Below, piece after piece: positions 5,921 to 13,526 of a DNA stretch of 20,000 nucleotides (its first letter is position 1; each line of letters opens with the position of its first letter). The translations under genes and the position numbers were made by a program. The notes beneath the pieces were generated by a model. The model worked only from the letters and a program-made list of their open reading frames with translations. It was not told where the DNA came from and did no database searches. The DNA is from an uncultured virus (IMG/VR IMGVR_UViG_3300029922_000048) (lineage: Duplodnaviria; Heunggongvirae; Uroviricota; Caudoviricetes), in the IMG/VR virus record IMGVR_UViG_3300029922_000048, one strand, 5' to 3'.

Positions 5921-6370
5921 ATGCTACAGTCCAAACTTAACGTAGTGGGCAAGATCGCCAAGTATATGGGGGTCTCCAAGAAGTCCTTGATCGATAAGGT
6001 CGAGGGGCAGGGGGACCTGGAGCCTATACTCCGGTTCCCTGAAATCCCTACCCTGTCTCCGTACCTATTCGTCTGTACTGCCCTGATAACCCCTGGAGTC
6101 GAGATGTTCCTCGACTTCAGCAAGTTCATCAGGTCACCAGTCTACGAGGAATGGGAGAAGGGGTTAGGGCATTCTGGTGTAACAAACCAGGACCGCCTCA
6201 TCGTGGCGTGGCGGTGCAAGCACAACCAGATGGTACTGTATCGGGCCACCAACTACACAGGAGTCGGGGGGCTGTTTGTGCGGGATGAAGATTACTGTGG
6301 GAAGGGTTGGTGCTGCGAACCCATCGCGAATTGGCTCGTCAACCGTGTCCCGAAGTTCATGCCAGACTAA
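5921..6370 (+). CDS. hypothetical protein (149 aa)
   Basis: ATG 1 nt after the ATPase stop; ends just before the RNA-island promoter. Confidence 0.7.
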   Translation: MLQSKLNVVGKIAKYMGVSKKSLIDKVEGQGDLEPILRFPEIPTLSPYLFVCTALITPGVEMFLDFSKFIRSPVYEEWEKGLGHSGVTNQDRLIVAWRCKHNQMVLYRATNYTGVGGLFVRDEDYCGKGWCCEPIANWLVNRVPKFMPD

Positions 6371-6462: not shown

Positions 6463-6887
6463 GGGCCTGACAGGTTTCGACGGGAAATCGTTGAGGTTAA
6501 CTGCAAGCCGAGGAAGTCTGTTGTACTCGTTAAACCATGGGCAAAAAACAAACAACGTCACTGAAAACGTGACCCTTCGCAACGACGTACGTGTTGCTTC
6601 TCCTTCGGCTCCGGTCGAAGCGGAAGTGGCCCTCGCGTAATTGCGGAAGGTTCCAGCCCTCGCGGCTGGTGTGGTCAGGCAAGAGAGAAAGCTGTAACCT
6701 GACTGCATGTACATTGCAATTGCTACGCCAAAGGAATCCTAGTACCGGCGTTCAAGATACAAGGATAAGAGATCGATGAAGGGTTTTGCTGGTCCCATAT
6801 CGATCTTGTCGTACCAAAACTAGACAAGCTTGTAGACGTTAGCTAGATTATTTCTCGGACGCGGGGTTCAATTCCCCGCCAGGTCCA
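6463..6887 (+). ncRNA. ssrA: tmRNA
   Basis: 5' GGGCCTGACAGGTTTCGACGGG and 3' GGACGCGGGGTTCAATTCCCCGCCAGGTCCA. The acceptor stem GGGCCTG/CAGGTCC has a G3:U alanine identity pair and an A discriminator. An internal tag frame reads ...NVTLRNDVRVASPSAPVEAEVALA* (stop 6638-6640). Confidence 0.93.
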
Positions 6888-6895
6888 CTTTTTCC

Positions 6896-6924
6896 TTGCC
6901 AGCTCCATTATCTACTCATAAGAT
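6896..6924 (+). promoter_or_regulatory. sigma70-type promoter of the HNH gene (probably a leaderless transcript)
   Basis: TTGCCA (6896-6901), 17 bp spacer, TAAGAT (6919-6924); the predicted +1 falls at about the GTG start at 6931. Confidence 0.55.
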
Positions 6925-6930
6925 GATGGT

Positions 6931-7485
6931 GTGACTTGTATATGCGAAAATTGTAAAGAGCCTTTTGAAAAGAAAACATCTGAATTTAATAGAAGCAGCC
7001 GTCTTGGGCGTAAGCACTTCTGTAAGTTAAGTTGTTCAATATCATTTAGTAACTCGCACCCAAGTGAGTCACGCCGGGAATCTCAAAAACAGAATACTAA
7101 ACAATTAGTTCCAGGCAACCGAAAGGATTTGAACTCACCGTTTAAAACGCATTTTAAATCAGTTCAATACCGGATAAAGTATGCCGGAAAAACAGGAAAT
7201 GCTACTCTAGATGATCTTAGGAACCAGTGGGAATTGCAGGGCGGTTTGTGTCCGTTCACTAAGCTACCAATGTCTAATTATGACACGACTAAAAGCCGCA
7301 ACAAGTTTCCAGTAACACCGTACCGTGCTTCACTGGACAGAGCGGATTCCACAAAGGGATACGATGCTGACAACATTCAATTCATTTCTCTAATGGCAAA
7401 CTATGCGAAACACAGTTTTACATCTCAGGAGTTGATTGACTTTTGTCACGCAGTAGCGCAGGCTCATCCACGGAGCCATAGCTGA
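6931..7485 (+). CDS. free-standing HNH/His-Me-finger (homing-type) endonuclease with an N-terminal Cys4 zinc ribbon
   Basis: CENC...FCKLSC zinc ligands; QGGLCPFT...ASLDRADSTKGYDADNIQFISLMANYAK is the SLDR..GY..N..N HNH variant. Visibly more AT-rich than the flanking genes. Confidence 0.8.
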   Translation: MTCICENCKEPFEKKTSEFNRSSRLGRKHFCKLSCSISFSNSHPSESRRESQKQNTKQLVPGNRKDLNSPFKTHFKSVQYRIKYAGKTGNATLDDLRNQWELQGGLCPFTKLPMSNYDTTKSRNKFPVTPYRASLDRADSTKGYDADNIQFISLMANYAKHSFTSQELIDFCHAVAQAHPRSHS

Positions 7486-7547
7486 GTGGTAAGAGCACCC
7501 CGCTGTCTACGGGGAGATCATGGGTTCGATCCCCATTGGTTCCGCCA
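7472..7547 (+). tRNA. tRNA-Asp(GTC)
   Basis: Acceptor GGAGCCA/TGGTTCC, G discriminator and CCA; anticodon arm CCCCG-CT GTC TA-CGGGG; T arm ATGGG-TTCGATC-CCCAT. Confidence 0.93.
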
Positions 7548-7561
7548 TTTTTTTCACACAC

Positions 7562-7637
7562 GGCCCTATAGTGTAACGGTTCAGCACATCAGCTTTTCAA
7601 GCTGGGGGTCGGAGTTCAAGTCTCCGTGGGGCTACCA
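7562..7637 (+). tRNA. tRNA-Glu(TTC)
   Basis: Acceptor GGCCCTA/TGGGGCT followed by A-CCA; anticodon arm TCAGC-TT TTC AA-GCTGG; T arm CGGAG-TTCAAGT-CTCCG. Confidence 0.93.
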
Positions 7638-7654
7638 TTCACAATTCATGAATC

Positions 7655-7978
7655 ATGGAAATATCTCACATCAAACACTTTGTACGGGATAATAACCCGA
7701 TCAAGTTTCATCACTACTACAACGGTGTGTTCTACTACCACGTCGAAGACCTTGAGACCAAGATCGTCTACGAGGTACCGATCAGGCTCGAACCGAGTCT
7801 GATTCCCCCGACCCTTAATGCGGTCGATAAAGCGTTCTTCCACAAACGTCGTATCCAGCAGGCCATCGATGCTGGAACGCTCCGGAGGATCACTCCTACC
7901 CAGGAAGAGACCACTGCCGAGATCGTCGCATTGACAGCACACCTGCAGGACCTCGATCCCGCAACCAATCAAGTTTAA
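7655..7978 (+). CDS. hypothetical protein (107 aa) inside the RNA island
   Basis: An ATG-started ORF filling the gap between tRNA-Glu and the next structured RNA; codon usage resembles the other genes. Confidence 0.7.
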   Translation: MEISHIKHFVRDNNPIKFHHYYNGVFYYHVEDLETKIVYEVPIRLEPSLIPPTLNAVDKAFFHKRRIQQAIDAGTLRRITPTQEETTAEIVALTAHLQDLDPATNQV

Positions 7979-7979
7979 T

Positions 7980-8077
7980 GCTCAGTGGGCTGACCTCGTA
8001 GTATACGCCCCGTCTCTAGAGACGGTTGGGTCTCTGCGAGGTTGGGGCTAGGACGCCGTGCGTCCTCCCTGAGCGCC
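7980..8077 (+). ncRNA. tRNA-like structured RNA A (atypical)
   Basis: Terminal stem GCTCAG/CTGAGC followed by G-CC; a 5-bp/7-nt arm AGGAC-GCCGTGC-GTCCT in the T-arm position; central hairpin CCGTC-TCTAGA-GACGG; CTGACCTCGTAG can pair with CTGCGAGGTTGG. Confidence 0.5.
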
Positions 8078-8084
8078 TTTTTAT

Positions 8085-8185
8085 CCGAGGGTGGGCGAGC
8101 AGTGAAGCCACTTGGGAAACGGTACCGGTAACCCAAGCGCCGTGGGGCATTAACAACGCTGGTGCAACTTCAGCCCCGAGGACCA
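8085..8185 (+). tRNA. non-canonical tRNA-like RNA B with an enlarged anticodon loop
   Basis: Acceptor CCGAGGG/CCCGAGG (tandem G.A mismatch) followed by A-CCA; D stem GGC/GCC; CTTGGG-15 nt-CCCAAG arm; long variable region; T arm GCTGG-TGCAACT-TCAGC. Confidence 0.65.
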
Positions 8186-8343
8186 TTTCATTGTGCTGAC
8201 ACATGTCATCTACCTGGATCGAGCGAAGGAATCGTACTCACCAGGTCAGTACCAAGTAGGAAGTAGCATAATAATGCTTCCTACCGTAATAAGGGGTGGA
8301 CCTCCCAACACCTATAACGATTTCCAAGGGAGGCTTCGTTTTC

Positions 8344-8489
8344 GCAGGAGTGGTGAAATTGGTAGACACACAGGCTCCATGTCGCGATTTTAACAGCGTA
8401 ACCGCATCTCTCATACAGATGTTAAGCCGCAATGACGACTGAAGCCCGTGGATTTAAAATCCGTGCAGGTTCAAATCCTGCCTCCTGCA
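8344..8489 (+). tRNA. tRNA-Leu-type body with a 68-nt structured sequence in place of the anticodon loop (RNA C)
   Basis: Acceptor GCAGGAG/CTCCTGC with A73; D arm GTG-AAATTGGTAGA-CAC; anticodon stem CAGGC/GCCCG enclosing 8376-8443; variable arm GGAT-TTAAA-ATCC; T arm GCAGG-TTCAAAT-CCTGC. Confidence 0.85.
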
Positions 8490-8556
8490 CATCTTACGAC
8501 CCATCGGGAATCGCCTGACTGGACAGATCATCCAGCCTCCCCTAGGGTCATTTCTT

Positions 8557-8651
8557 CACGCCATAGTTTAGCTAGGATGTTCAACTTCGGTTGGATGGTC
8601 AAAACGCCGCCTCCTAGGGTGGAAAGGTAGGTTCGAGTCCTGCTGGTGTGT
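8557..8651 (+). tRNA. non-canonical tRNA E with a hairpin inserted in the D loop and a 6-nt anticodon loop
   Basis: Acceptor CACGCCA/TGGTGTG; D stem GTTT/AAAC enclosing 32 nt that include GTTCAAC-TTCG-GTTGGAT; anticodon arm CCGCC-TCCTAG-GGTGG; T arm GTAGG-TTCGAGT-CCTGC. Confidence 0.75.
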
Positions 8652-8664
8652 CTCTTTACAACTC

Positions 8665-8820
8665 CGTAGCTGCTCAGTAGGGTAGATCGTCGCCTAGGAT
8701 GCGTCCCCACTGAAGCTTTCACAGTACTGTGTGTTTCGCCTGTCCTTACTCTGGGTCGTTTCTCGATTTCCCGCCCCAGTGGTTTCCAGGTCTTTGGCAC
8801 AGTTGCTGGGCAGCTACGCC
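8665..8820 (+). ncRNA. unidentified ~155-nt structured RNA F
   Basis: 15-bp closing stem CGTAGCTGCTCAGTA/TGCTGGGCAGCTACG, whose two U:G pairs favour the + strand; inner helix CCACTG/CAGTGG. Confidence 0.6.
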
Positions 8821-8936: not shown

Positions 8937-9020
8937 GCCCGCCCCTACTTTCTCTGGGGGCGGGCAAAACTTTACAACCTCCCCACCTTGATTCGAGGGT
9001 GGGGAGTGACCCTTTCTTTT
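8937..9020 (+). terminator. two GC-rich hairpins closing the RNA island (putative terminator or processing signal)
   Basis: GCCCGCCCCTA/TGGGGGCGGGC (8937-8965) and CTCCCCACCTT/AGGGTGGGGAG (8979-9006), followed by TTTCTTTT. Confidence 0.5.
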
Positions 9021-9027
9021 AACCCCT

Positions 9028-9768
9028 ATGCTCAACATCATCAAAAACCAGTTCAAAATCAATCCGGTTCGTCTCACCCGTCTCTTCACGTTCACATTCA
9101 GCTACATGTTCGCCTTCATGTTTTGGGCCTATGTCTACTCAGAGTTCCTTAGGATTGACCACACTGATCCATGGTATCAGCTTCCCTTCATATCTCTCTT
9201 GGCATCGGTTCTGATGTCCTATATCCCGATGGTATTCGGGGTGGTAGCACCCTGTGCGATCTTGGAGTCGGTGGTGGAGAATGGGTTGCGGCCCGGTATC
9301 CATCTATCCAGGAATTCGTGGTATAGTAGTATATTGGTAGGTGCCGAAAAGCCTGCCCGGACATTGTGTGGTCACTGCTGGCGTACACCGCCCCAGATGC
9401 TGCTCTCGCTGATGTTCTATCTGTTGTGCGCAATATTCATACCGGTGTGGTTCATCTTCAGGTTAGTGATCCTGATCCCCATCATTTTGGCCGGGTCATG
9501 GATTGTTAACCGAGTTATTGCAGATCGCCGCACTTTGTGGGAGGTATCGATAGACTGGCAAACCAACCCCGCCGAGGTGTTGACCGCTATCCCGCGTTAC
9601 ATCCCTAAGAAACCCTCCAGTAGTGAGCCCACCAAGTTCCAGATCGTGGTCGAGAACTTCTTCTCCAAGGTGGCGGAAGTCCTGGTCGCCACCAAGCAAC
9701 GTGCTTGCCCCCGCATTGACTGGAAATACGATTACGAAAAATTCGACTCCTCAAATGACCCTCGATAA
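9028..9768 (+). CDS. multi-pass membrane protein of unknown function
   Basis: About four hydrophobic segments; a CGHC motif. Confidence 0.75.
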   Translation: MLNIIKNQFKINPVRLTRLFTFTFSYMFAFMFWAYVYSEFLRIDHTDPWYQLPFISLLASVLMSYIPMVFGVVAPCAILESVVENGLRPGIHLSRNSWYSSILVGAEKPARTLCGHCWRTPPQMLLSLMFYLLCAIFIPVWFIFRLVILIPIILAGSWIVNRVIADRRTLWEVSIDWQTNPAEVLTAIPRYIPKKPSSSEPTKFQIVVENFFSKVAEVLVATKQRACPRIDWKYDYEKFDSSNDPR

Positions 9769-10963
9769 GATACTATCAATCAAGACCTTCGCGGAAGCTC
9801 AAGCATTGATCTCTCGGTGCAAAACTCCCCAGGGGTTGTTCCCGTGGATCATCACCAAGAAGTCCCTGCAGGAGAAGCAGGACCTCACCACCAAGGCCTT
9901 CAGGGCATTGTCAGTGTTGGTTCATCCCGACAAGAATCCAGCCGCCAAGGCCCGAGCCGAGATAGCATTCAAGGCCCTGGAAGGATTCAGGACTCAAGCA
10001 GACGAAATCTGCTCGGGGGTCAAGAAGAAGAACATCCACGACAATGGTGTGCTGGTTAACCCGGTGGTGTTCTCGACCAAGCACGGTACCTACACGGCGG
10101 TCCGGAGGATTGCTGAAGGTGCCACCTGTACGGTGTTTGAGGGAACCCTCCAGAGCAAGGGTCAGGTCTCCGGTCTGGAGGTCTTGATGCGTGTCCCGAA
10201 CTCCTATCGCGACAATGACCTGATGAAGCGGGAAGCTGTTGCGTTTGGGGTAATGCGCAATAAAGAGAAGGAGATGGGGAAGACTCCAGAGGGTAAAGAG
10301 GCTGCGAAACGGTTCATGGCACGCCTACCTGGATTCCTGGGCTCAGTCGAATTGGAGCAGCCGGGGGTCCCGGACAAGAAGGTGGTCAATACCTTCGTGA
10401 AACCTGGAAATCTTGATGAATGGTACACGCTGGTTCAAATTCACGACCAGTATCCGGACGGCCTCGATCCCAGGATCATGTGCTTCATCTGGAACCGCAT
10501 CCTTGAGGCTCTCACGTTCACCCACGCGGCCCGCATTGTCCATGGTGCCCTCACCCCCAACCACATCCTTGTACGCCCACGGGACCACGCAGGGCTCTTG
10601 ATTGACTGGACGGCATCCACAATGGTGGCATCTGGTGATCGAGTCCCCTACTTGGACTCCAAGTACTGTACGCTATTGCCTCCGGAGATCACCGGTACGG
10701 TCGGGTTAGCGAACCCAAGCTCCGACATCTATACATCAGCATGGTCAATGGTGTGGTTGCTAGGTGGAGAGCCTGTCGAGCAATCTATCCCGGCTCACGT
10801 ACCGGAACCATTCAGGCAAATTCTAAACCGGTGCCTGCAACCTAAAATCAGCTCCCGGTATCGCAATGTCAGTGAAGTTTATGAACACTTTCAGCAAGCT
10901 GCCCGTGGCCTTTGGGGGCCTCGGAAGTTTGTTGAGCTAACAATGCCTCGGGCTGTCGCCTAG
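9755..10963 (+). CDS. J-domain (HPD) plus degenerate Ser/Thr protein-kinase-fold fusion
   Basis: The likely start is ATG 9755 (MTLDKIL). J-domain AFRALSVLVHPDKNP...AEIAFKAL; kinase motifs IAEGATCTVFEG, VLMRVP, KRE, VHGALTPNHILV, LIDW, PPE, SDIY and RCLQP...SRY. Confidence 0.85.
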   Translation: MTLDKILSIKTFAEAQALISRCKTPQGLFPWIITKKSLQEKQDLTTKAFRALSVLVHPDKNPAAKARAEIAFKALEGFRTQADEICSGVKKKNIHDNGVLVNPVVFSTKHGTYTAVRRIAEGATCTVFEGTLQSKGQVSGLEVLMRVPNSYRDNDLMKREAVAFGVMRNKEKEMGKTPEGKEAAKRFMARLPGFLGSVELEQPGVPDKKVVNTFVKPGNLDEWYTLVQIHDQYPDGLDPRIMCFIWNRILEALTFTHAARIVHGALTPNHILVRPRDHAGLLIDWTASTMVASGDRVPYLDSKYCTLLPPEITGTVGLANPSSDIYTSAWSMVWLLGGEPVEQSIPAHVPEPFRQILNRCLQPKISSRYRNVSEVYEHFQQAARGLWGPRKFVELTMPRAVA

Positions 10964-10995
10964 GGCTATGAAACCAAAAACAAAAAGGAAACACC

Positions 10996-12060
10996 ATGGG
11001 CTCGACCCAATTTGATTCAACATCATACACAGCCGCAACTCGCAGTCTCAACGCCTCAGGCATGTCGTTCAAGCGCCAGGCTACCGCCGCCGCCACCGGG
11101 CAGCTCAACGCCTCGTCCATCGCGGACCCCCTCAACCCACGCAAGCTCAACCGAGCCATCCACTCGCAGGGTGCTCGTGAGTGCTGTAAGGTGCCGGGCG
11201 TCAATGATGTGCTGAGCATCGCGGCCTGGATCGACCTCACTGGTTCAATGGGACAGTTCCCGTACGAACTCCAGAAGGACCTCCCGACCATCATGCAGAC
11301 CCTGATTGATCAGGGCATCACCGAACACCCCAGTATCCTGGTCGGTGGCATGGATGACGAGATTGCTGTCCCACCGGACGCCTGTCTTCAGATCAGCCAG
11401 TTTGAGACCGGTTCCAAGGAACTTCTGGACGCCATCAACAACATCATCATCCCCTCCAACGGCGGCGGCAACCGGGGTGAAAGCTACCATCTCGCATTTT
11501 ACGCGATGGCACGCCACACCTACAGCCAGCTGTGGAGCGAGGACCAGCAGAAGGGCATTGTGTTCCTGATCTGCGACGAGGAACCGGTCATCGGTGACCG
11601 CGACCCGTCCCGGTTCGGTACGACGCCCGAGATTGCCAAAGAGTGCTTCGGCGATACTCTGGAGAGCGAGGTCCCGCTGCTCACGAGTCTCAAGGAGGTC
11701 GTTGAACGCAATCACGTGTTCATCATCCGCCCAGACCGTTCCAGCCAGCCCCAGATCACCAAGAAGTGGCAGAAGCTCCTCAAGGACGCCGGAGAAAACC
11801 CCGAGAACGTCATCGACGGCATCAAGACCACCGCCGAAGTGATCACCTACATGGTGCTCATGATTGGGCAGAAGCTTGGCCACGACGTGGACGACCTCGC
11901 CGACGTGCTTCGCACCAAGGGTGCCAGCATCGATGCAGTGACGCTCAGCGCCGTCAAGGCCATCGTTCCGGTTGGTGGTCCCTCTACCGCGATCCAGACG
12001 ACCGGCACCGCCTCAGGCGAACTTGCCACGACCGACACCGCCGGTCGCGCTCGTCGCTAA
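10996..12060 (+). CDS. von Willebrand factor A (vWA) domain protein
   Basis: MIDAS-type IDLTGSM, GGGNRGESY and FLICDE; RBS AAAGGA upstream. Confidence 0.85.
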   Translation: MGSTQFDSTSYTAATRSLNASGMSFKRQATAAATGQLNASSIADPLNPRKLNRAIHSQGARECCKVPGVNDVLSIAAWIDLTGSMGQFPYELQKDLPTIMQTLIDQGITEHPSILVGGMDDEIAVPPDACLQISQFETGSKELLDAINNIIIPSNGGGNRGESYHLAFYAMARHTYSQLWSEDQQKGIVFLICDEEPVIGDRDPSRFGTTPEIAKECFGDTLESEVPLLTSLKEVVERNHVFIIRPDRSSQPQITKKWQKLLKDAGENPENVIDGIKTTAEVITYMVLMIGQKLGHDVDDLADVLRTKGASIDAVTLSAVKAIVPVGGPSTAIQTTGTASGELATTDTAGRARR

Positions 12061-12123
12061 CACTTGAACTAATGGCTGGCGGCTCGTGCACCATCGTGTA
12101 GCCGCAACTCGTTAGCTCTACTT

Positions 12124-12158
12124 GGGGTCATCGGGAAACCGGTGGCCCCTCCCCTTTC
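12124..12158 (+). terminator. GNRA-capped hairpin (possible terminator or attenuator) between the vWA and PurA-like genes
   Basis: GGGGTCATCGG-GAAA-CCGGTGGCCCC followed by the pyrimidine run TCCCCTTTC. Confidence 0.5.
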
Positions 12159-12203
12159 ATGCATAGTACATTGCAACCCACACTCAAACAAAAGAAGACA
12201 TCA

Positions 12204-13526
12204 ATGATGAACCATCGAGCACACATCTTAGTCGGCCTCGGATTCGGGGACGAAGGGAAGGGTACCATGACAGACTGGTTCTGTCGGGAATCGAAGCCGA
12301 ATTTGGTCGTGCGTTACAATGGTGGAGCGCAATGCGGGCATAATGTCATTACTCCAGAAGGTAAGCATCATTGTTTCAGCCAGTACGGTTCCGGTACTCT
12401 AGCGGGCGTCGATACGCTCCTTTCTAAGTTCATGATGGTTAATATGTACAGCTTGGCCCACGAGGCAGCCTATTTGGCTCCCCTCTACCCCGACAAGAAT
12501 CCGGTCGATATGGTGATGATCGACGGGCGAGCCCCTATCCTGACCCCCTACCATGTGATGGCCAACCAGTTGAAGGAGTTCATGCGCGGCAATGCTCGCC
12601 ATGGCTCCTGTGGGAAGGGAATAGGCGAACTCGGGTACGACATGGTCCACCACCCCGACGAAGTCCTCCATGCAATGGACCTCAGGGATCAAGACAAGAC
12701 TCTCGATACCCTGCAGCGCATCCGTGCCAGGAAGACTCACGACCTCATCATGATGGGGATCGGGAATCTTCCCATGAACCACAAGCTGTCCCAGATATTC
12801 CGCAAGGAATTCGAAGAGCGAAAGGGTGTGGAGGACGCTGCAATCTTGCTCAAGATCGCTAATCGCTACAATATCCTGGAACCGGACCGGGTCAATGACC
12901 TGGTCCGTACCAGCGATGTCGTGATGGAAGGAGCCCAGGGGGTACTGCTGGATGAATGGAAGGGCTTCCACCCCCACACCACGTGGTCCAACATTACGGT
13001 CGAGAACGCCTACGCGATCCTGACTGAGGCGAGATGGTCGGGCGAGATCGAAACCACCGGCATTATCAGAGCCTACGCAACACGTCACGGGGCGGGACCC
13101 TTTCCCTCCCACCAAGACGGGATGCTCAAGATCAACCCACTTGAGCATAACCAACGCAACGACTTCCAGGGTTCCTTCCGAGTGGGGGACTTTGACTTCG
13201 TGCTGTTCGACTACGCTTGCCGTTGTATCCCACAGCTAACCAACATCGCGTTCACGCACGCCGATATGGTGGATAGACTGACGGGTGTCTGCTGGTCCTA
13301 TCAGTTCGACAATGGGAAGCAGCTCGACACTCTACAACTTAGCTCGGGTCATGATCTGTCCCACCAGACCACCCTGAACGACACACTCACGCGCGTGAAA
13401 GCCCTCCGGACCGCCCCACCTTCCGGTGGTCTCGATGGCTTGATCGATGCAGTAAAGACTTGCGCCAACAGACCTGTTGCCTACATTTCCTCAGGTCCTA
13501 CAGCGCATACAAAGCAGCGATGCTAA
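12204..13526 (+). CDS. divergent adenylosuccinate-synthetase (PurA)-family protein
   Basis: VGLGFGDEGKG, VRYNGGAQCGH, EGAQGVLLD, YATRHGAGPFP, THAD and YISSGP. The start is probably ATG 12204 or 12207. Confidence 0.88.
   Translation: MMNHRAHILVGLGFGDEGKGTMTDWFCRESKPNLVVRYNGGAQCGHNVITPEGKHHCFSQYGSGTLAGVDTLLSKFMMVNMYSLAHEAAYLAPLYPDKNPVDMVMIDGRAPILTPYHVMANQLKEFMRGNARHGSCGKGIGELGYDMVHHPDEVLHAMDLRDQDKTLDTLQRIRARKTHDLIMMGIGNLPMNHKLSQIFRKEFEERKGVEDAAILLKIANRYNILEPDRVNDLVRTSDVVMEGAQGVLLDEWKGFHPHTTWSNITVENAYAILTEARWSGEIETTGIIRAYATRHGAGPFPSHQDGMLKINPLEHNQRNDFQGSFRVGDFDFVLFDYACRCIPQLTNIAFTHADMVDRLTGVCWSYQFDNGKQLDTLQLSSGHDLSHQTTLNDTLTRVKALRTAPPSGGLDGLIDAVKTCANRPVAYISSGPTAHTKQRC

What the first reader, a model, noticed from the sequence alone, without database searches (positions are those of the whole stretch)
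8344..8489. Near-canonical tRNA-Leu body carrying a 68-nt structured insert in place of the anticodon loop
Seen: Leu-type acceptor, A73, D loop AAATTGGTAGA, long variable arm and T arm. Positions 8376-8443 fold as nested helices GTCG/CGAC, TTAAC/GTTAA and CATCT-CTCATAC-AGATG. The insert is too short for a group I intron. I found no canonical bulge-helix-bulge at 37/38 and no Leu anticodon restored by a simple excision there. Established: bacterial LeuRS generally does not read the anticodon, so this RNA could still be leucylated. Inference: a chargeable non-decoding tRNA, a natural scaffold/cargo RNA, or a new short intron type.
Basis: partly seen in the sequence, partly recalled or inferred. 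Interest (0 to 1): 0.75.

Follow-up and report, generated by a model that had tools for sequence, protein, structure and literature searches.

The report
Anticodon-less leucine-tRNA-framed phage RNA
An uncultured phage carries a gene for an RNA with the intact body of a leucine tRNA, but its codon-reading loop is replaced by a long hairpin ending in a look-alike anticodon loop; it resembles the unexplained stable RNA1 of phage T5 and is probably a non-decoding tRNA mimic, not a tRNA awaiting splicing.

Summary
The feature is real. A tRNA-Leu body at 8344-8489 keeps every published bacterial LeuRS identity element, and 68 nt (8376-8443) replace its 7-nt anticodon loop. It lies in a phage tRNA/tmRNA cluster with other odd RNAs.

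No single cut restores a loop with U33; a cut at 35/36 gives Leu(CAG) with rare C33. It is not a group I intron, has no bulge-helix-bulge at its junctions, and lacks the embedded T arm of Lak-phage introns.

The layout matches phage T5 RNA1, annotated as a tRNA-like stable RNA of unknown function. T5 RNA1 covaries as a hairpin while its would-be splice junction drifts. Pattern scans found 82 non-redundant phage RNAs on this Leu frame. This scan reported the class before on other DNA.

New here: the insert's tip is a canonical CAU anticodon stem-loop, seen in none of the 82. Against: I found no homologue of the insert, have no expression data, and the insert folds no better than shuffles.

Best reading: an unspliced, probably chargeable, non-decoding tRNA mimic (0.5). 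Rivals: tolerated pseudogene (0.3), spliced intron (0.13).

The parts
8344..8350 (+). acceptor stem 5' strand (G1-G7; C2-G71 pair)
   Evidence: pairs 7 of 7 with 8482-8488
8351..8370 (+). U8, G9, Leu-type D arm (3-bp stem, A14, A15, G18, G19, A20a) and A26
   Evidence: sequence; identity elements as listed in PMC9976931
8371..8375 (+). anticodon stem 5' strand (27-31)
   Evidence: pairs 4 of 5 with 8444-8448
8376..8443 (+). 68-nt insert in place of the 7-nt anticodon loop; predicted as an irregular extension of the anticodon helix (24 pairs in the whole arm)
   Evidence: no Rfam family; no homologue
8405..8421 (+). tip hairpin shaped like an anticodon stem-loop: 5 Watson-Crick pairs, 7-nt loop with C32 U33, anticodon CAU, purine 37
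   Evidence: 50 of 20000 insert shuffles give any such hairpin, 0 with CAU (post hoc); 14 of 17 identical to a tRNA-Ile(GAU) arm, reached by 31 of 1000 shuffles
8396..8430 (+). alternative strict bulge-helix-bulge fold (central helix 8399-8402/8421-8424, bulges 8403-8405 and 8425-8427); probably chance
   Evidence: 18 of 1500 shuffles and 9 of 588 window tiles have one; 4.4 kcal/mol above the favoured fold; key pair probability 0.003; its cut leaves a 46-nt loop and no second motif
8444..8448 (+). anticodon stem 3' strand (39-43)
8449..8464 (+). long variable arm (U44, stem-loop, G47, U48) whose sequence mimics a Leu(UAA) anticodon arm
   Evidence: 8448-8464 is 15 of 17 identical to Leu(UAA/CAA) anticodon arms; an intact tRNA-Leu(UAA) in L427 has nearly the same sequence as its true variable arm
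8465..8481 (+). T arm, 5 of 5 pairs, canonical T loop (U54 U55 C56 A58)
8482..8489 (+). acceptor 3' strand and discriminator A73; followed by CAT, so CCA must be added

Best explanation
The gene makes an unspliced, tRNA-Leu-framed stable RNA of about 146 nt, of the same architectural class as phage T5 RNA1. Shown: the sequence anatomy, the intact LeuRS determinants, the absence of a U33-restoring cut, and the existence of the class. Inferred: it is transcribed with the tRNA/tmRNA cluster, trimmed like a tRNA, given CCA by the host and leucylated by host LeuRS. It cannot decode because the arm is about 24 bp long. It most likely arose from a tRNA-Leu(UAA) gene whose loop was replaced by a hairpin that includes a captured anticodon arm of another tRNA. 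The role I think most likely is tRNA mimicry in the phage-host fight over translation: a stable carrier that presents anticodon-like loops (CAU at the tip) as bait for host anticodon nucleases or other tRNA-binding factors. That role is pure inference, about 0.15 on its own.
For: Body scores above the Rfam cut-off. Its few defects sit in the decoding arm: A28.C42 (3 of 78 long-arm Leu tRNAs have such a mismatch) and C33 (20 of 628 tRNAs). The acceptor, D/T core and A73 are intact and the anticodon arm is dispensable for leucylation. T5 RNA1 has the same order of parts and is annotated 'tRNA-like stable RNA with unknown functions'; 487 of 50,697 phage records hold it. In 13 of those copies the loop stays 47-48 nt, 6 of 14 arm pairs change on both sides (covariation 0.368 against 0.137 shuffled, 0 of 500), and the 3' junction comes in three types (1, 3 and 9 copies), which argues for structure kept without splicing. 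The class is large: 100 distinct single-body elements, 82 non-redundant, from 281 viral loci, with A73 in 65 of 82. The same cluster holds two more tRNA-framed RNAs without a 7-nt loop. T4 RnaC, a tRNA-like RNA with a long arm, was validated by Northern blot as a late RNA (PMC9697503).
Against: No homologue of this insert was found, so conservation and covariation cannot be tested for this copy. The three nearest related contigs lack it. The insert folds no better than shuffles. CCA is not encoded, while tRNA-Asp and tRNA-Glu in the same window encode it. The anticodon-like tip is found in none of 82 class members (the 1 hit is a T-loop), so it may be a chance or passenger feature; the test was post hoc. 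The T5 RNA1 insert is not homologous to this one, its covariation was counted on related sequences with a structure derived from the same alignment, and 'stable RNA' rests on a GenBank note.
Confidence: 0.5

Rival explanations
1. Tolerated pseudogene or insertion scar: a tRNA-Leu(UAA) gene took up a hairpin containing a piece of another tRNA, lost decoding and is starting to decay; the anticodon-like tip is a leftover with no role.
For: Singleton in all searches; insert fold not significant; stem mismatch, C33 and no CCA; neighbours 8084-8185 and 8557-8651 are also aberrant. A related phage contig has a plain tRNA-Leu(UAA) at a similar distance upstream of the same kinase-phrog2971-purA/Z module (L124; about 41% protein identity, so weak synteny).
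Against: All acceptor, D-stem and T-stem pairs and the tertiary-contact bases are intact, and the insert continues the anticodon helix in register. The same layout is under structural selection in T5-like phages.
Confidence: 0.3
2. Protein-spliced short intron: 8380-8440 (61 nt) is removed to give tRNA-Leu(CAG), by an unknown phage or host endonuclease and ligase, as proposed for the enigmatic Lak-phage tRNA introns.
For: The cut after 35 gives a Leu anticodon on a Leu body; the in-silico product scores 114.8 in ARAGORN, near the 25th percentile (115.05) of 78 long-arm Leu tRNAs. A37 is no objection: 4 of 5 phage CAG tRNAs have it. CTG is common in window genes (87 of 351 Leu codons in 12 ORFs). 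8 of 16 comparable elements restore a Leu, Ser or Tyr loop with U33 (3 of the 8 came from a scan biased towards such ends), so a spliceable subclass may exist. 2 of 4 carriers of such elements encode Rnl2-type ligase matches.
Against: No register gives U33; the 8 registers give three anticodons (Gln, Leu, Met), so one Leu hit is weak. Restorable elements cut at 31/32 to 35/36 with U33 kept. The variable arm points to a UAA rather than a CAG ancestor. All 4 Lak intron types keep Y32-U33 and carry an embedded T-arm-like hairpin, which this insert lacks. No splice motif at the junctions. No RtcB, RNA ligase or splicing endonuclease among 25 of 63 window ORFs scanned, but the rest of the genome is not available.
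Confidence: 0.13
3. Archaeal-type stepwise splicing starting at the internal bulge-helix-bulge, which would release the CAU hairpin (8405-8426).
For: A strict all-Watson-Crick 3/4/4 motif exists; 18 of 1500 shuffles reach the 2/4/2 form and 0 of 1500 the 3/4/4 form matched after the fact.
Against: 9 of 588 ordinary 68-nt tiles of the window have one; the conformer is 4.4 kcal/mol above the favoured fold; after the cut a 46-nt loop remains with no second strict or relaxed motif. The phage carries a tmRNA, which points to a bacterial host, where this endonuclease is not known (own knowledge).
Confidence: 0.03
4. Assembly chimera joining a tRNA-Leu to unrelated sequence.
For: No second contig covers the element; the one identical contig found (L001) starts further downstream.
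Against: Both ends pair with each other across the insert (acceptor, anticodon stem, inner helices), and the layout recurs in many phages.
Confidence: 0.04

Closest known systems
Phage T5 RNA1 (AY543070 30501-30644, misc_RNA rna1, 'tRNA-like stable RNA with unknown functions')
   Same: Leu-type D loop, 5-bp anticodon stem, long insert in place of the loop, long variable arm, T arm, no encoded CCA, about 144 nt, inside a phage tRNA cluster with other stable RNAs.
   Different: Insert 47-48 nt with an invariant 8-nt tip loop, against 68 nt with a CAU anticodon-like tip; no sequence homology; T5 RNA1 has an imperfect acceptor end; it is conserved in 487 records while this copy is a singleton.
Phage T4 RnaC and RnaD (species 1 and 2 stable RNAs, NC_000866)
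   Same: Stable RNAs of unknown function in a phage tRNA cluster; RnaC folds with a T arm and long hairpin arms and is expressed late (PMC9697503).
   Different: RnaC has no recognisable D arm or Leu identity set in the predicted fold; no homology.
Lak megaphage tRNA 'introns' (PMC6784885; bioRxiv 10.1101/356790)
   Same: Short non-group-I inserts in the anticodon loop of phage tRNA genes, one of which contains a possible tRNA.
   Different: Lak inserts are 79-114 nt, keep Y32-U33 and the anticodon, carry a T-arm-like hairpin, occur in Tyr, Phe, Gly and Thr tRNAs and have insert-free alleles; this one has C33, no embedded T arm and no known empty allele.
Canonical bacterial long-arm tRNA-Leu (for example L427 and L124 tRNA-Leu(UAA))
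   Same: All body features; L427 has nearly the same variable arm.
   Different: 7-nt loop with U33 replaced by 68 nt; anticodon-stem mismatch.
Archaeal bulge-helix-bulge tRNA introns and group I tRNA introns
   Same: Interruption of the anticodon loop.
   Different: No motif at the junctions; far too short for a group I core and no Rfam intron match.

Membership tests
Canonical decoding tRNA-Leu | cloverleaf body with acceptor, D, T and long variable arms | tested here: met
Canonical decoding tRNA-Leu | 7-nt anticodon loop with U33 on a 5-bp stem | tested here: not met
   68-nt loop, C33, 4 of 5 pairs
Bacterial LeuRS substrate | A73, U8:A14, A15-U48, G18G19, A20a, G18:U55, G19-C56, U54:A58 | tested here: met
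   all bases present against the lists
Bacterial LeuRS substrate | mature CCA end and actual leucylation | not testable with these tools
   CCA not encoded; needs an assay
T5 RNA1-like tRNA-framed stable RNA | Leu frame with anticodon stem and variable arm kept, loop replaced by a long folded insert, in a phage tRNA cluster | tested here: met
T5 RNA1-like tRNA-framed stable RNA | insert homologous to the T5 RNA1 insert (47-48 nt, invariant tip loop) | tested here: not met
   different length and tip; no significant phage match for the insert
T5 RNA1-like tRNA-framed stable RNA | insert conserved with covariation across relatives | tested here: inconclusive
   no relatives with the element found
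T5 RNA1-like tRNA-framed stable RNA | accumulates as a stable unspliced RNA | not testable with these tools
   needs RNA data
Group I intron in tRNA | catalytic core detectable by covariance model; roughly 200 nt or more (length recalled) | tested here: not met
   61-nt excess; no intron family even at E 10
Archaeal BHB tRNA intron | bulge-helix-bulge at the exon-intron junctions whose cut restores a 7-nt loop | tested here: not met
   only an internal motif; its cut leaves 46 nt and no second motif
Archaeal BHB tRNA intron | splicing endonuclease available | not testable with these tools
   whole genome not held; none among 25 window ORFs
Lak-type phage tRNA intron | exons restore a canonical loop with Y32-U33 | tested here: not met
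   0 of 8 registers give U33; Lak examples
Lak-type phage tRNA intron | insert carries a nested tRNA-like body or T arm | tested here: not met
   no Rfam tRNA match in 8370-8450; only an anticodon-like hairpin
YrlA-type Y RNA | match to RF02553 and a neighbouring Ro60 gene | tested here: not met
   no YrlA match in the window; no TROVE hit among 25 ORFs

The most novel reading that the evidence does not exclude
A selected phage decoy RNA: a chargeable tRNA-Leu frame used as a stable carrier that displays foreign anticodon stem-loops (CAU at the tip of a 24-bp arm, UAA-like in the variable arm) to soak up host anticodon nucleases or tRNA-modifying enzymes. It would be one module of a widespread family with swappable cargo that includes the long-unexplained stable RNAs of T5.
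Probability: 0.12. Interest if true: 0.78.

Novelty: new variant of a known kind. Interest (0 to 1): 0.47.

Why it matters
Phage T5 and T4 carry tRNA-like stable RNAs whose function is still listed as unknown. The same leucine frame turns up on dozens of unrelated phage RNAs that ARAGORN misses or miscalls. Leucine is a natural frame for cargo because LeuRS ignores the anticodon arm. Host defences attack tRNA anticodon loops and phage tRNAs counter them (PMC7824862, PMC11464382), so a carrier with an anticodon-like tip gives a concrete decoy hypothesis that can be tested in laboratory E. coli with T5 RNA1 as the model. If this copy is only a pseudogene, its value is as a warning that such genes should not be annotated as intron-containing tRNAs.

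Tried and rejected
Homologue searches that found none: exact 20-mer in viral contigs, 0; kinase-anchored viral scan, 0 relatives; metagenome scan on the next ORF, 3 loci, none with a tRNA; Leu frame plus CTCATA pattern, 22 viral and 9 genome stretches, none with an anticodon-like hairpin in a single Leu body; blastn against phage records, only short body or chance matches; 80 loci related through the phrog_2971 gene, none with a homologue; whole records G001-G003.

Sequencing runs: none was listed and no RNA holder was listed; this is no evidence either way.

'Arm shift' idea (native UAA anticodon arm pushed into the variable slot, true variable arm deleted): suggested by 15 of 17 identity, against at most 13 in 127 long-arm tRNAs and 14 in 82 class members. 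I dropped it as unnecessary because the only viral-contig match of that pattern is an intact tRNA-Leu(UAA) with such a sequence as its true variable arm; joining the D arm straight to that arm scores 92.8, below ARAGORN's threshold.

Antisense target: no complement of 10 nt or more elsewhere in the window. Target-site duplication or repeats at the insert: none. Nested tRNA: no Rfam match. A recalled likeness of the tip to an elongator tRNA-Met arm was not confirmed: 0 of 258 loci matched the pattern and the best of 40 CAU arms matched 11 of 17. RtcB: 0 of 5 records. Neighbouring ORFs 7655-7978 and 5921-6370 gave no RNA-processing lead. CTAG-tipped hairpins as kissing loops: 4 sites in about 1 kb (5 with one in a D loop, 6 in all at 8016-8697), not clearly above chance for non-coding DNA, not pursued.

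Literature: searches listed no paper describing this RNA class or T5 RNA1's function; the library lacks most subscription journals and old papers.

Full report
1. Setting. The window is a piece of a large bacteriophage genome. It holds a UvsX-like recombinase, a Holliday junction resolvase, an AAA ATPase, an endonuclease, a kinase and a PurA/PurZ-like synthetase (25 of 63 ORFs scanned). Rfam finds a tmRNA at 6463-6890, tRNA-Asp, tRNA-Glu, the element at 8344-8489 and a second odd tRNA at 8557-8651. No whole genome is held.

2. Observation. The tRNA body is real: 37.5 bits, E 8.5e-05. The acceptor pairs 7 of 7, the D and T arms are canonical, the anticodon stem pairs 4 of 5, the variable arm has standard Leu geometry, A73 is present and CCA is not encoded. 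The loop is 68 nt. With the cloverleaf enforced, the insert continues the anticodon helix through 8381-8384/8436-8439, 8387-8389/8431-8433, 8396-8398/8428-8430 and 8404-8409/8417-8422. The insert's stability is not above chance: z -0.46 alone and z -1.45 in frame, with 44 of 500 shuffles as good.

3. Could it be spliced? Of 8 possible single cuts none gives U33. They give CUG (Gln), CAG (Leu, cut after 35) or CAU (Met). The Leu product scores 114.8 in ARAGORN, near the 25th percentile of 78 long-arm Leu tRNAs from my loci; 3 of those 78 have a stem mismatch. C33 occurs in 20 of 628 tRNAs, while A37 occurs in 4 of 5 CAG tRNAs and is no objection. So splicing is possible but gives a doubly unusual tRNA. 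There is no Rfam intron match. The only canonical bulge-helix-bulge lies inside the insert: 18 of 1500 shuffles and 9 of 588 window tiles have one, it is 4.4 kcal/mol above the favoured fold, and its cut leaves a 46-nt loop with no second motif. Lak-phage introns (PMC6784885, passages and supplementary Table S6 part 4 seen; preprint passages) keep Y32-U33 and carry a T-arm-like hairpin; this insert has neither.

4. A class. A pattern for a Leu D loop 80-110 nt before a T loop gave 118 viral stretches from 11 of 64 parts of the collection, about 710 estimated. Two narrower scans gave 43 (complete) and 120 (27 of 64 parts). From these 281 overlapping loci I kept single bodies with a 7 of 7 acceptor and dropped tandem tRNAs: 100 distinct elements, 82 non-redundant, A73 in 65 of 82, CCA encoded in 7 of 82. 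The D and T motifs were imposed by the patterns. By a loose rule 16 of 82 keep an anticodon stem and a variable arm; 8 of these 16 restore a Leu, Ser or Tyr loop with U33, and 3 of the 8 came from the scan biased towards such ends. Four such inserts that I folded carry T-loop hairpins. The window element is not of this restorable kind. It is annotated as a tRNA-like stable RNA of unknown function, has the same order of parts and is held by 487 of 50,697 phage records. I aligned 13 of the 487 (T5 and 12 picked from the spread list). The loop stays 47-48 nt, the tip loop is nearly invariant, the 3' junction comes in three types, and 6 of 14 arm pairs change on both sides (covariation 0.368 against 0.137; 0 of 500 shuffles; relatedness not controlled). 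That is the pattern of an RNA used unspliced. T4 RnaC is a similar tRNA-like RNA with long arms, validated by Northern blot (PMC9697503 passages) and still of unknown function (PMC12685909 passages).

5. What is special here. The tip 8405-8421 is a canonical anticodon stem-loop with CAU. 50 of 20000 insert shuffles give any such hairpin and none has CAU; only 4 such hairpins occur in 40 kb of both strands, two of them T arms. Its best match among 603 anticodon arms is a tRNA-Ile(GAU) arm at 14 of 17, reached by 31 of 1000 shuffles. These tests were post hoc. None of the 82 class members has a true anticodon-like tip, and targeted scans found no relative with one. The variable arm matches Leu(UAA/CAA) anticodon arms at 15 of 17. 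I first read this as a displaced native anticodon arm.

6. Mechanism. Shown: anatomy, LeuRS determinants, no U33-restoring cut, a large class. From the literature: bacterial LeuRS needs A73 and the D/T core, not the anticodon arm (PMC2377443 abstract and outline; PMC9976931 passages); that arm does matter for editing. Inferred: transcription with the cluster (weak promoter-like sites at 6896 and 7665 and a terminator-like site at 8995; 6 of each found against 2.2 and 2.8 in shuffles), tRNA-like processing, CCA addition, leucylation and no decoding. Most likely role, by inference only: a tRNA mimic or decoy in the conflict over host tRNA-cutting defences (PMC7824862 and PMC11464382 passages).

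7. Against this reading. The copy is a singleton. The nearest related contigs (41-47% protein identity) lack it; L124 has a plain tRNA-Leu(UAA) upstream of the same gene module. I have no expression data, the fold is not significant, and neighbouring RNAs are also aberrant. A tolerated pseudogene is therefore a strong rival (0.3), ahead of a spliced intron (0.13), BHB splicing (0.03) and an assembly artefact (0.04).

8. Novelty. The kind is known from GenBank notes on T5 and T4 and from earlier notes of this scan on other genomes. My searches listed no paper that describes the class; the library lacks most subscription and older papers, where the T5 RNAs were probably first described. PMC7609411 (passages) has no occurrence of 'phage'. 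PMC6125680 was seen as passages. The supplement of the bioRxiv Lak preprint was closed, but the journal version's table was read. I rate this a new variant of a known but barely studied kind, interest 0.47.

Noticed in passing
window 8557-8651 +: Second odd tRNA (Rfam 29.7 bits): a hairpin inserted in the D loop and a 6-nt anticodon loop containing CUA; no encoded CCA.
   Followed up: partly
window 8084-8185 +: Long-arm tRNA-like RNA ending in CCA, with a 6-bp anticodon stem, a 15-nt loop with a palindromic centre and a G55-type T loop; not called by Rfam; fold not significant (z 0.5).
   Followed up: partly
window 7980-8074 + and 8665-8818 +: Two further long folds (z -3.2 and -1.6) that start with nearly the same 11 bases and have CUAG-containing hairpin tips; no Rfam family.
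   Followed up: partly
window 6463-6890 +: Phage tmRNA (101 bits) with a long possible tag frame of about 30 residues ending in ALA.
   Followed up: no
window 6931-7485 +: Endonuclease gene (PHROG 3322/1035) between tmRNA and tRNA-Asp, placed like the homing endonucleases in T4 and T5 tRNA clusters.
   Followed up: no
window 5921-6370 +: ORF with a feature-based lead to SMI1/KNR4 (SUKH) immunity-type proteins, score 0.93 but under 170 shared features.
   Followed up: partly
window 9623-13526 +: DnaJ-kinase, phrog_2971 and PurA/PurZ-like genes form a module conserved in order in L123, L124 and L125.
   Followed up: partly
L124 7098-7214 +: YrlA-like Y RNA match (35.9 bits, below the cut-off of 69) next to tRNA-Leu(UAA), with its 5' part repeated at about 7510-7600; no Ro60 hit among 4 nearby ORFs scanned.
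   Followed up: partly
L020, L101, L117, L226, L248, L253, L255, L331, L355, L379: Phage long-arm tRNA genes with 52-78-nt loops that restore a Leu or Tyr anticodon with U33 by one cut between 31/32 and 35/36; several inserts contain T-loop hairpins; L020 and L101 share an insert motif. Candidates for a spliced subclass.
   Followed up: partly
L427 1454-1541 +: Intact tRNA-Leu(UAA) whose variable arm is a near copy of its own anticodon arm, suggesting origin of the arm by duplication.
   Followed up: partly
G001:C1:149000-172000 - (L300, L301): Related 208-kb phage with a tRNA array in which many T loops have G at position 55 and D loops lack GG, plus short-arm tRNA-Leu with AAG and CAG anticodons.
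   Followed up: no
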